Shown here: one piece after another, positions 22,586 to 28,412 of the stretch
Numbering within the stretch: position 1 is the stretch's first letter
How the letters are laid out: each line of letters begins with the position of its first letter
DNA from: Fusobacteriales bacterium
Lineage (GTDB): Bacteria > Fusobacteriota > Fusobacteriia > Fusobacteriales > Fusobacteriaceae
NCBI GenBank assembly: GCA_020063625.1
Contig: JAICDD010000003.1
Location: 16,833-80,832, forward strand
DNA length: 64,000 bases
Reading direction: 5' to 3'
The notes under the pieces: generated by a model
Told to the model about the DNA's origin: nothing
The model's database searches: none
Seen by the model: only the letters and a program-made list of their open reading frames with translations
Position numbers and translations under genes: made by a program

Positions 22586-25923
<3,338 letters not shown>

Positions 25924-28039: not shown

Positions 28040-28092
28040 AATTAAACGAGTTCTTTATTTTTAAAGAGCTCGTTTTAATTTATTTAATAAAA
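28040..28092. repeat. REP-like palindrome copy
   Basis: AATTAAACGAGTTCTTT-attttt-AAAGAGCTCGTTTTAATTTATTTAATAAAA. Confidence 0.8.
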
Positions 28093-28120: not shown

Positions 28121-28140
28121 CAAAAAGAAGCCCGAAGGCT
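28121..28140 (-). terminator. terminator of the small-peptide transcript
   Basis: Minus strand AGCC-UUCG-GGCU followed by UCUUUUU. Confidence 0.7.
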
Positions 28141-28152
28141 GAGGTAGATAAA

Positions 28153-28239
28153 CTATTTTTTCATATACCAAACAAATACAATGAAGCAAGCTATAGCAAT
28201 TCCTCCATTGATGTTTAGTGTAGTAATTTCAATAGTCAT
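28153..28239 (-). CDS. 28-aa hydrophobic peptide, candidate type I toxin (MTIEITTLNINGGIAIACFIVFVWYMKK)
   Basis: Not in the ORF track. AAGGAGGT RBS; one TM-length hydrophobic stretch ending WYMKK; own promoter and terminator. Confidence 0.75.
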   Translation of the reverse strand: MTIEITTLNINGGIAIACFIVFVWYMKK

Positions 28240-28250
28240 ATACTACCTCC

Positions 28251-28342
28251 TTGTGTGTGATTTTACCTACGAGAAACGTGACTAACTCATAGGTATGAAA
28301 AAGGCTCTCTACAAGAGAGAGCCTATCTCATCACGTTTTTTT
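28251..28342 (+). ncRNA. predicted cis-antisense (antitoxin-like) RNA
   Basis: Possible -10 TATACT (28239-28244) with a weak -35; hairpins 28264-28295 and 28302-28324, then a T run; complementary to the peptide 5' UTR. Confidence 0.45.
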
Positions 28343-28383
28343 AATTCACACACAAGGAAACGCCTTCGAGCGTTTACAGTAAT

Positions 28384-28412
28384 ATTATACTTTATTTATT
28401 AAGTTTTTTCAA
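28384..28412 (-). promoter_or_regulatory. promoter of the small-peptide mRNA
   Basis: Minus strand TTGAAA (28412-28407), N17, TATAAT (28389-28384). Confidence 0.75.

What the first reader, a model, noticed from the sequence alone, without database searches (positions are those of the whole stretch)
28121..28412. Unannotated type I toxin-antitoxin-like locus with AapA/IsoA-style RNA architecture
Seen on the minus strand: TTGAAA-N17-TATAAT promoter; ~140-nt 5' UTR; 5' hairpin (28358-28375); a perfect 13-bp inverted repeat (28346-28358 with 28248-28260) that covers the start of the SD; a 3' segment (28141-28147) also complementary to the SD (28243-28249); a 28-aa hydrophobic ORF ending WYMKK; a UUCG terminator. 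The UTR holds two hairpins (28264-28295, 28302-28324) with an alternative AAACGTGA/TCACGTTT pairing. A plus-strand TATACT -10 would give a ~90-nt two-hairpin antisense RNA. Known: double SD sequestration plus a cis-antisense RNA is how hok/sok and H. pylori aapA/isoA work. Inference: a new type I TA family in this lineage; I recognise no named homolog.
Basis: partly seen in the sequence, partly recalled or inferred. Interest (0 to 1): 0.85.

Follow-up and report, generated by a model that had tools for sequence, protein, structure and literature searches.

The report
Double-locked small toxin gene family
This is a real, unannotated gene for a 28-residue membrane peptide of the toxin kind, whose messenger RNA folds to hide its own ribosome-binding site twice.

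Summary
The locus is one minus-strand unit of about 257 nt: promoter, 5' hairpin, leader, SD, 28-codon ORF and terminator.

It is a member of a family. A covariance model of the 80-nt leader core finds about 90 copies in 31 of 187 Fusobacteriales genomes, all Fusobacteriaceae, in 7 genera, with up to 9 copies per genome. Copies also lie on two F. varium conjugative plasmids and 13 viral contigs. The sister species lacks the unit at the same site.

Comparison across copies supports:
- the 5' arm pairing with the SD arm;
- a CCUC anti-SD next to the terminator;
- three leader helices, two of which (P1 and P3) cannot coexist.

The ORFs are under purifying selection. Sibling units encode Ldr-like peptides.

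No antisense promoter is conserved, whereas the sense promoter is near-consensus in 70 of 71 units. G·U pairs place the selected structure on the sense strand.

Verdict: a type I-toxin-like, cis double-locked mRNA family with a bistable leader. The antitoxin is unidentified.

The parts
28384..28412 (-). Sigma-70 promoter: TTGAAA (28412-28407), 17-nt spacer, TATAAT (28389-28384). The predicted transcription start is about 28377.
   Evidence: 11 of 12 match. The homologous position carries TTGACTTTTT...TGnTATAAT in 70 of 71 family units.
28358..28375 (-). 5' terminal hairpin AAACGCUCGAAGGCGUUU. Its GCUCGAAGGC can alternatively pair with the terminator's GCCUUCGGGC (28139-28130).
   Evidence: I3: 10 nt, 90%. 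Across the family, the specificity of the 5'-3' pairing is inconclusive.
28346..28358 (-). 5' arm (first anti-SD): UCCUUGUGUGUGA.
   Evidence: I1. Cognate arm duplexes average -18.9 kcal/mol, against -7.0 +/- 2.6 for non-cognate pairs, in 65 units.
28261..28340 (-). Conserved 80-nt leader core, holding helices P1, P2 and P3.
   Evidence: Covariance model R1 scores it at 89.7 bits, E = 8.6e-16. About 90 copies occur in 31 genomes.
28331..28338 (-). P1 5' strand, AAACGUGA.
   Evidence: Pairs with 28274-28281 (I5). Six of 8 pairs show changes on both sides in homologs.
28296..28330 (-). P2: a long hairpin whose apical part (28324-28302) plus UUUUUCAU looks like an intrinsic terminator.
   Evidence: I2. 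Seven of 16 pairs show changes on both sides. The apical stem averages -15 kcal/mol across the family.
28264..28295 (-). P3 hairpin. Its 12-nt loop (UUAG + UCACGUUU, 28285-28274) contains the P1 3' strand, so P1 and P3 cannot coexist.
   Evidence: Six of 9 pairs show changes on both sides, and 98% of cells are paired. The P2+P3 state is favoured by about 5 kcal/mol in 70 of 71 units. P1 is predicted to form first during transcription.
28243..28260 (-). SD arm: UCACACACAAGGAGGUAG. It is the partner of the 5' arm (28260-28248) and contains the Shine-Dalgarno AAGGAGG (28252-28246).
   Evidence: I1, I7.
28153..28239 (-). ORF of 28 codons plus stop: MTIEITTLNINGGIAIACFIVFVWYMKK, with a polar N-terminus, an NGG motif, a hydrophobic helix and a KK tail.
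   Evidence: In the family, 52% of single-base codon changes are synonymous against 21% expected, and third-position changes dominate.
28141..28147 (-). 3' anti-SD, CUACCUC, directly before the terminator.
   Evidence: I7. CCTC lies between the stop codon and the terminator in 51 of 56 units, against 17% in shuffles.
28121..28140 (-). Intrinsic terminator AGCCUUCGGGCU followed by UCUUUUUG.

Best explanation
The locus is a single, self-contained transcription unit of about 257 nt on the minus strand. It encodes a 28-residue membrane peptide of the type I-toxin kind. It is one copy of an undescribed, mobile, multi-copy family restricted to Fusobacteriaceae, found on chromosomes, conjugative plasmids and prophages.

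Shown by sequence comparison:
- A strong promoter drives the unit.
- The SD is occluded by two separate in-cis elements. A fast-evolving 5' arm pairs with the 13-17 nt that run into the SD. A CCUC element abutting the terminator pairs with the rest of the SD and the spacer.
- Between the arms sits a conserved 80-nt leader with three covarying helices. P1 and P3 are sterically exclusive, so the leader is bistable.
- The ORF is under purifying selection.

Inferred:
- The full-length RNA is translationally inert.
- P1+P2 is the fold that forms first during transcription. P2+P3 is the resting fold.
- The peptide is made only after RNA processing or refolding removes both locks. Opening the SD costs about 11 kcal/mol in the full-length RNA and about 3 kcal/mol when both ends are removed.
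- P2, which looks like an intrinsic terminator, probably ends many transcripts as a leader RNA of about 80 nt.
- No separate antitoxin gene is detectable, and the proposed cis-antisense RNA is probably absent.
For: Anatomy and fold.

Family and distribution:
- 31 of 187 Fusobacteriales genomes, all in one family, 7 genera, up to 9 copies.
- Organism names: F. varium, F. ulcerans, F. perfoetens, Cetobacterium, Propionigenium.
- F. varium plasmids AP017969 and AP017970, in unannotated gaps of the conjugation region.
- 13 viral contigs, all confirmed by the model at 54-96 bits.
- Presence/absence difference against the sister species: 460 nt here, 63 nt there.

Helices:
- 93.6% of cells are paired, 19 pairs change on both sides, and 0 of 500 shuffles reach this; slid controls give 40-55%.
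- Arms: cognate -18.9 against non-cognate -7.0 kcal/mol.
- 3' CCUC in 51 of 56 units.
- The SD is paired jointly by the 5' arm and the 3' tail in 47 of 56 MFE folds, and is never open.
- Additive locks: SD opening energies of 11.1, 5.2, 7.4 and 2.8 kcal/mol for full-length, 3'-cut, 5'-cut and both-cut RNAs.
- Bistability. A diverged alternative core (L018, L020; sequences) keeps, by my reading, the same arrangement of the P1 strand inside the P3 loop.

Coding and toxin-likeness:
- Coding signal.
- Sibling units with the same leader encode peptides that hit Pfam Ldr_toxin at E = 6.9e-5 and 1.1e-3.

No antisense promoter: against the sense promoter. Strand of selection.
Against: - Toxicity is untested, and the window's own peptide class matches no toxin family.
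- Absence of an antisense promoter rests on a sigma-70 consensus scan. A weak or atypical promoter would be missed.
- No transcript data could be consulted.
- The processing step is purely inferred.
- P1 is strongly selected, yet in the model it would exist only briefly, so its real role is unexplained.
- Whether P2 terminates transcription is unknown.
Confidence: 0.6

Rival explanations
1. This is a canonical type I toxin-antitoxin. A plus-strand RNA starting near the start codon mirrors P3 and P2. It binds the leader through loop-loop contacts, as IsoA1 and Sok do, and blocks translation or triggers RNase III cleavage.
For: - TATACT lies at 28239-28244 on the plus strand.
- The mirrored region still folds: -28.8 kcal/mol, z = -4.0.
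- Two conserved leader hairpins would make good kissing targets. The P3 loop begins with a conserved UUAG, which fits the YUNR motif (the YUNR rule is from my own knowledge).
- aapA1/IsoA1 works this way (PMC5416894).
Against: - The window has no -35 element (TAGTGT) and no promoter call.
- No antisense promoter or -10 box is conserved at any offset in 65 units. At most 13 of 65 have a -10-like hexamer at the start codon.
- No conserved antisense terminator is seen (sequences).
- Frequent G·U pairs become A·C mismatches on the antisense strand.
- The core sequence is conserved between paralogs in one genome, which is the opposite of what is expected for specific cis-antisense pairs.
Confidence: 0.18
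2. The antitoxin is made from the same strand. Most transcripts stop at the P2 terminator. This gives a leader RNA of about 80 nt in which the 5' arm and the P1 5' strand are single-stranded. That RNA binds in trans to any toxin mRNA that has lost its own 5' arm: it docks first on the P3 loop (the P1 pairing) and then zips onto the SD arm.
For: - P2 is terminator-like in all units.
- In the 82-nt leader, nt 21-47 are predicted to be unpaired.
- P1 covaries strongly although it is about 5 kcal/mol less stable in cis. This would be explained if it also forms between molecules.
- The arms evolve faster (61-62% identity) than the core (79%), the ORF (84%) or the promoter (74%), as specificity determinants do.
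- Six orphan units lack an ORF. Several keep the promoter, 5' hairpin, arm and core and end in a terminator.
Against: - There is no transcript evidence.
- The cis arm would outcompete a trans RNA unless a 5' cleavage occurs, and that cleavage is itself hypothetical.
- The orphans may simply be decaying copies.
- Fast arm evolution can also be explained by lack of sequence constraint plus correction between the inverted repeats.
Confidence: 0.15
3. This is a non-toxic small membrane protein, for example a regulatory, exclusion or holin-accessory peptide of mobile elements. Its leader is a conditional translational switch that responds to temperature, a factor or a ligand. It is not part of any toxin-antitoxin logic.
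For: - No toxin family matches this peptide class.
- No antitoxin was found.
- The leader is bistable.
Against: - A near-consensus extended -10 promoter combined with a double SD lock is the signature of a product that must be kept off.
- Sibling units with the same leader encode Ldr-like peptides.
- The units are multi-copy, patchy and located on plasmids and prophages.
- The core has no large conserved unpaired pocket of the kind riboswitches have.
Confidence: 0.1
4. This is a stand-alone small RNA or a transcription attenuator, and the ORF is incidental.
For: P2 is terminator-like. Rfam's only nearby hit is a weak Phe_leader match at E = 3.4.
Against: - 65 of 71 units keep a GGAGG SD 6-9 nt before an ORF of 24-45 codons that ends just before CCUC and the terminator.
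- Synonymous changes are in excess.
- Conserved elements downstream of P2 (the P1 3' strand, P3 and the SD arm) show that read-through is functional.
Confidence: 0.03

Closest known systems
aapA1/IsoA1 of Helicobacter pylori (PMC5416894)
   Same: A peptide of about 30 aa. The full-length mRNA fold impedes translation. There are long-distance 5'-3' contacts, metastable structures during synthesis, and two leader stem-loops.
   Different: No IsoA-like antisense promoter is conserved. The locks here are a 5' arm plus a 3' CCUC element. The leader core is unrelated in sequence. The peptide is unrelated. The phylum is different.
hok/sok of plasmid R1 and its chromosomal homologs (own knowledge)
   Same: A strong promoter; an inert full-length mRNA with fold-back 5'-3' pairing; SD sequestration; a sequential folding pathway; location on plasmids.
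   Different: There is no mok-like overlapping reading frame, no Hok/Gef peptide similarity and no Sok-type antisense gene. The 5'-3' pairing is not shown to be specific across the family.
tisB/istR-1, zorO/orzO, dinQ/agrB, shoB/ohsC (own knowledge)
   Same: A long structured 5' UTR that keeps the primary transcript inactive. Activation is expected to need 5' processing and an open single-stranded entry site.
   Different: Those systems have a divergent trans-acting sRNA gene next to the toxin. Here the flanks differ from locus to locus and leave no room for one. For example, a divergent coding gene starts about 25 nt from the -35 box on the F. varium plasmids.
Ldr/Rdl and the wider Ldr/Fst toxin superfamily (Pfam PF13940)
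   Same: Sibling units with the same leader encode peptides that hit Ldr_toxin, such as MDILIELAVQVIAGILAKIICDWIDKR at E = 6.9e-5.
   Different: These hits are below Pfam's cut-off (23.3 and 19.4 bits against 27). The window's NGG-class peptide gives no hit. No Rdl- or RNA II-like partner was found.
ToxIN-type (type III) operons (PMC4147584)
   Same: The layout on one strand: an RNA element, then a terminator hairpin, then the toxin ORF.
   Different: Here the toxin is a tiny hydrophobic peptide, not an RNase. The upstream RNA is not a tandem repeat array. The resemblance is in layout only.

Membership tests
Type I toxin-antitoxin system (generic) | A small hydrophobic protein whose expression is toxic | not testable with these tools
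   The peptide is 28 aa with a hydrophobic helix and a KK tail. The family mean GRAVY is 1.17, and 49 of 65 peptides have K or R in the last five residues. Toxicity needs an experiment.
Type I toxin-antitoxin system (generic) | An antisense RNA antitoxin, cis- or trans-encoded, that pairs with the toxin mRNA | tested here: not met
   No conserved antisense promoter or -10 box was found in 65 units. No trans complement of 14 nt or more to the GC-containing parts exists in the own genome. The flanks are not conserved. The test is by sequence only; transcript data were unavailable.
Type I toxin-antitoxin system (generic) | A toxin mRNA whose fold blocks its own translation | tested here: met
   The SD is paired in 56 of 56 MFE folds, and in 47 of 56 it is paired by the 5' arm and the 3' tail together. 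The SD opening energy is 11.1 kcal/mol on average and 14.4 in the window. These are in-silico results supported by covariation.
hok/sok | A Hok/Gef-family peptide with an overlapping mok frame | tested here: not met
   There is no Pfam or NCBIfam hit. No overlapping upstream ORF is listed.
hok/sok | Specific 5'-3' fold-back pairing | tested here: inconclusive
   In the window there is a 10-bp pairing, 28371-28362 with 28139-28130. Across the family, cognate pairs score only slightly better than non-cognate ones: -14.3 against -11.7 +/- 4.3, and -15.2 against -13.4.
aapA/IsoA | An IsoA antisense RNA expressed from the opposite strand over the 5' UTR and the start of the ORF | tested here: not met
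   This tests for a promoter, not for a transcript.
Ldr/Fst toxin superfamily | A peptide matching Pfam Ldr_toxin or Fst_toxin | tested here: not met
   The window's peptide matches no family even at E <= 10. A profile of its class finds no solved type I toxin. Only sibling units of another peptide class give sub-threshold Ldr hits.
Known RNA families (Rfam 15) | A match to any curated covariance model | tested here: not met
   There was nothing better than E = 0.41 in 2.5 kb on both strands, and none of the hits reaches its gathering score.

The most novel reading that the evidence does not exclude
Toxin and antitoxin come from one promoter on one strand. Premature termination at P2 releases a leader RNA of about 80 nt. 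Its free 5' arm and P1 strand recognise the P3 loop and the SD arm of processed toxin mRNAs. The hypervariable arms then act as lock-and-key specificity determinants among the many copies carried by competing plasmids and phages. This would be a new class of RNA-controlled toxin-antitoxin module, with a sense-encoded, 5'-coterminal antitoxin, in a phylum where no type I system has been described.
Probability: 0.15. Interest if true: 0.9.

Novelty: new variant of a known kind. Interest (0 to 1): 0.66.

Why it matters
- A 2025 paper states that type I systems have so far been found only in Proteobacteria, Firmicutes and Tenericutes (PMC12390103 abstract). This family would add Fusobacteriota, with about 90 copies on chromosomes, conjugative plasmids and prophages of gut and fish-gut Fusobacteriaceae. 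It is essentially invisible to annotation.
- The module appears to be self-contained. It has a near-consensus promoter, two independent SD locks and a conserved bistable leader, but no recognisable antisense gene. It therefore tests whether an RNA antitoxin is always needed, or whether it can be supplied by the leader itself.
- The covarying, mutually exclusive P1 and P3 helices give a clean natural example of a selected alternative RNA fold.
- In practical terms, the covariance model allows these small genes to be annotated.

Tried and rejected
- Paralogs in the own genome: none by DNA, peptide or short-word BLAST. Two apparent 3'-end matches were low-complexity sequence.
- Hammerhead ribozyme: some copies read CUGAUGAG...GUC, but the GA of that motif covaries as part of P1 and there is no GAAA core, so this was rejected.
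- Riboswitch: rejected, because there is no conserved unpaired pocket and no Rfam hit.
- P1 and P3 forming a pseudoknot together: rejected on geometry. Zero nucleotides lie between the P1 3' strand and the P3 3' strand, so nothing can span an 8-bp helix.
- Internal promoter between P2 and the SD: none found.
- Divergent or convergent partner sRNA: the flanks are unrelated between loci.
- Peptide similarity to solved type I toxins: none by profile search.
- Earlier notes of this scan describe other Fusobacterium type I-like modules with neighbouring sRNA genes. A sequence look-up showed they are not look-alikes of this family.
- The two Bacteroides pattern hits did not match the model, so they are chance matches.

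Full report
**1. Observation**

- Promoter: TTGAAA, a 17-nt spacer, TATAAT, at 28412-28384. It matches 11 of 12 positions and is the best promoter in the 1-kb region scanned.
- 5' hairpin: 28375-28358.
- Arm repeat: a 13-bp perfect inverted repeat, 28346-28358 with 28248-28260, extendable to 16 nt at 94%. It runs into the SD AAGGAGG.
- 3' anti-SD: CUACCUC (28147-28141), complementary to GAGGUAG (28249-28243).
- ORF: 28 codons, 28239-28153.
- Terminator: a UUCG-loop hairpin.
- Leader: two hairpins, plus the alternative 8-bp pairing AAACGUGA/UCACGUUU.

The predicted 257-nt RNA folds at -99.2 kcal/mol against -54.0 +/- 4.9 for shuffles, so z = -9.2. The 13-nt arm complement is the only such match of the mRNA in the whole 1.79-Mb genome.

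The one weak observation is the plus-strand TATACT. It has no usable -35 element (TAGTGT), and the scan called no plus-strand promoter inside the unit.

**2. It is a family**

The unit is single-copy in its own genome. BLAST against the bacterial family found partial matches in other genera, and the best-conserved part was the middle of the 5' UTR.

I aligned 19 of these cores and built a covariance model from them.
- The model finds about 90 full-length hits in 31 of 187 Fusobacteriales genomes. All are in one family, in 7 genera, with up to 9 hits per genome.
- A pattern scan of 185,579 species' genomes names the carriers: Fusobacterium varium, F. ulcerans, F. perfoetens, Cetobacterium, Propionigenium maris and Fusobacteriaceae MAGs. 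Its only outside hits were two Bacteroides matches, which the model rejects.
- Units sit in unannotated gaps of the conjugation regions of the two F. varium Fv113-g1 plasmids.
- Units also sit on 13 IMG/VR viral contigs, all confirmed by the model.
- The sister species of the window's genus has 63 nt where the window has 460 nt, between the same two genes. The unit is therefore a discrete gain or loss.

I assembled 71 distinct units for comparison.

**3. Shared anatomy**

- Promoter: 70 of 71 units have TTGACTTTTT...TGnTATAAT about 39 nt upstream of the core.
- ORF: 65 of 71 units have a GGAGG SD followed by a hydrophobic ORF of 24-45 codons. This ends just before CCUC and a terminator.
- Peptide classes: there are several. 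The window's class carries an N/D/E-GG motif before the helix. Another class (MNFLKELALQVVASVLASIICKWLDRK, MDILIELAVQVIAGILAKIICDWIDKR) hits Pfam Ldr_toxin at E = 1.1e-3 and 6.9e-5, below the curated cut-off.
- Coding signal: third-position changes dominate (519 against 355 and 196). Of single-base codon changes, 52% are synonymous against 21% expected.
- Annotation: the peptides are almost absent from a 15-billion-protein collection. The one that is present is named a "GlyGly-CTERM sorting domain" protein, and it shares a cluster with a Caudoviricetes protein.
- Databases and literature: no Rfam family, no solved type I toxin and no paper matches.

**4. RNA structure from comparison**

The three leader helices:

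| Helix | Pairs with changes on both sides |
|---|---|
| P1 | 6 of 8 |
| P2 | 7 of 16 |
| P3 | 6 of 9 |

Overall, 93.6% of cells are paired, against 40-55% when the partners are slid, and 0 of 500 shuffles reach the observed values.

The 3' strand of P1 lies in the loop of P3 and directly abuts P3's 3' strand. With no linker, nothing can span an 8-bp helix, so the two helices cannot coexist.
- P2+P3 is the more stable state, by 5.0 +/- 3.3 kcal/mol, in 70 of 71 units.
- P1+P2 is the predicted fold of the nascent RNA between nt 104 and 113.
- By my reading of the sequences, a diverged alternative core (L018, L020) keeps the same arrangement. Its own P1 pairing covaries: UGUUCA/UGAACA in one copy, GCUUA/UAAGC in the other.

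The arms that flank the core differ in sequence from unit to unit, yet each pairs with its own partner. Cognate duplexes average -18.9 kcal/mol and non-cognate ones -7.0 +/- 2.6. In all, 92% of cognate pairs but only 1% of non-cognate pairs fall below -15 kcal/mol.

Among units whose ORFs are 75-99.5% identical, the arms are the fastest-evolving segment:

| Segment | Mean identity |
|---|---|
| Arms | 61-62% |
| Promoter | 74% |
| Core | 79% |
| ORF | 84% |

Evidence for the second lock and for the two locks acting together:
- CCUC next to the terminator is present in 51 of 56 units, against 17% expected.
- In 47 of 56 full-length MFE folds, the SD is held jointly by the 5' arm and the 3' tail. 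It is never open.

The two locks are roughly additive. Energy needed to open the SD:

| RNA form | Family mean (kcal/mol) | Window (kcal/mol) |
|---|---|---|
| Full-length | 11.1 | 14.4 |
| Without the 3' element | 5.2 | 7.5 |
| Without the 5' arm | 7.4 | 11.0 |
| Without both | 2.8 | 1.1 |

The pairing between the 5' hairpin and the terminator is present in the window (I3). It is not clearly specific across the family.

**5. The antitoxin question**

- A consensus scan of the antisense strand of 65 units found only scattered hits and no preferred position. The same scan recovers the sense promoter in nearly all units.
- A scan for -10 boxes alone gives at most 13-19 of 65 units at any offset, which is attributable to AT-rich codons shared within peptide subfamilies.
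- In the sequences, the mirrored P2 is not followed by a conserved U-run.
- The helices hold many G·U pairs. For example, pair 23-37 is U·G in 13 of 19 sequences and pair 57-76 in 9 of 19. These would be A·C mismatches on the antisense strand.
- The sense fold is more stable than its mirror: -35.0 kcal/mol, z = -6.6, against -28.8 kcal/mol, z = -4.0.
- No trans-encoded complement exists in the own genome.
- The flanks differ between loci. On the plasmids a divergent coding gene begins about 25 nt from the -35 box.

By sequence criteria, therefore, the unit has no partner gene. This is a sequence-level negative.

**6. Mechanism**

Shown by comparison:
- one strong promoter;
- a coding ORF;
- two selected SD locks;
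- a selected pair of mutually exclusive leader helices.

Inferred:
- The primary transcript is inert.
- Activation needs both locks removed or remodelled, probably by RNA processing, as in aapA1 (3' trimming; PMC5416894) or tisB-type systems (5' trimming; own knowledge).
- P1+P2 is a co-transcriptional intermediate, or a "poised" fold that leaves P3's strands single-stranded next to the SD helix.

P2 has an apical stem of -15 kcal/mol followed by UUUUUCAU or UUUUCUCAU. That makes it look like an intrinsic terminator in every unit. Many transcripts may therefore end as a leader RNA of about 80 nt in which the arm and the P1 strand are unpaired.

That leader RNA could act as a same-strand antitoxin. 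This would explain three things:
- why P1 is selected although it is the less stable fold in cis;
- why the arms evolve like specificity determinants;
- why several of the six ORF-less orphan units keep the promoter, arm and core.

I rate this reading at about 15%.

**7. Comparison and verdict**

The module works like hok and aapA1 mRNAs in having an inert, fold-locked toxin message with sequential folding. It resembles tisB-class leaders in having a long structured 5' UTR.

It is not a demonstrable member of any named family:
- no peptide family match for this class;
- no Rfam match;
- the defining antisense RNA is not found.

It is best filed as a new variant of the type I-toxin kind, in a phylum where none had been described (PMC12390103 abstract).

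Earlier notes of this scan report other Fusobacterium type I-like modules with adjacent sRNA genes. They are not sequence relatives of this family, and no such neighbour exists here.

Noticed in passing
window 28323-28331 (minus strand), and the same position in homologs: The invariant AUG at the base of P2 opens a two-codon mini-ORF (AUG-NNN-UAG/UAA) in 51 of 71 units. The U of the stop codon is conserved although it is usually unpaired in P2 (pair 16-44). No SD precedes the AUG, so it may be a coincidence of the conserved helix sequence.
   Followed up: partly
L135 3560-3700 (F. varium plasmid AP017969, about 23560-23700): An unannotated 35-codon ORF with an AAGGAGG SD (MRFITIFFIFIVVLAVIDTVRRIKIAQIKRDRKRK) is convergent with the toxin unit, and the two appear to share one terminator hairpin. 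A similar C-terminus (KIAQIKRGRKKK) lies next to units on AP017970. This is another small membrane peptide of the conjugation region.
   Followed up: no
L069, L129, L123, L126, L064, L118 (701-781): Six 'orphan' units have no SD or ORF after the core. In L069, L123 and L129 the promoter, 5' hairpin, arm and core are followed by a terminator. They may be decaying copies or domesticated small RNAs.
   Followed up: partly
L018 and L020 (F. varium/ulcerans group): Units with the same promoter, arms and MYIYI...WWWYKNK peptide carry a different leader core. By my reading of the sequences, that core keeps the same layout: a P1 strand, a terminator-like hairpin, then a hairpin whose apical part holds the P1 partner.
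   Followed up: partly
Protein WP_293957980.1 / MCF2639425.1 (family peptide MTVTIQHLTINFDGGAILLGGLLLLIFILLVRKYR): The only family peptide found in the public collection is named 'GlyGly-CTERM sorting domain-containing protein'. This is probably a mis-call from a weak TIGR03501 match.
   Followed up: no
window 28157-28165 and 28294-28302: A perfect 9-nt complement links the P2 tail (UUUUUCAUA) and the end of the ORF (UAUGAAAAA) (I4). I did not check whether it is conserved.
   Followed up: no
window 28044-28075: A 14-bp hairpin serves as the terminator of the upstream plus-strand methyltransferase gene. Both it and the toxin unit lie inside the 460-nt segment that the sister species lacks.
   Followed up: partly
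L041 (cores at 1501 and 1865) and L117 (cores at 701 and 1077): Two units lie in direct tandem, about 365-375 nt apart, with different arms. After the L116 terminator, a further family-type promoter follows, and a partial P2-like model hit lies nearby.
   Followed up: no
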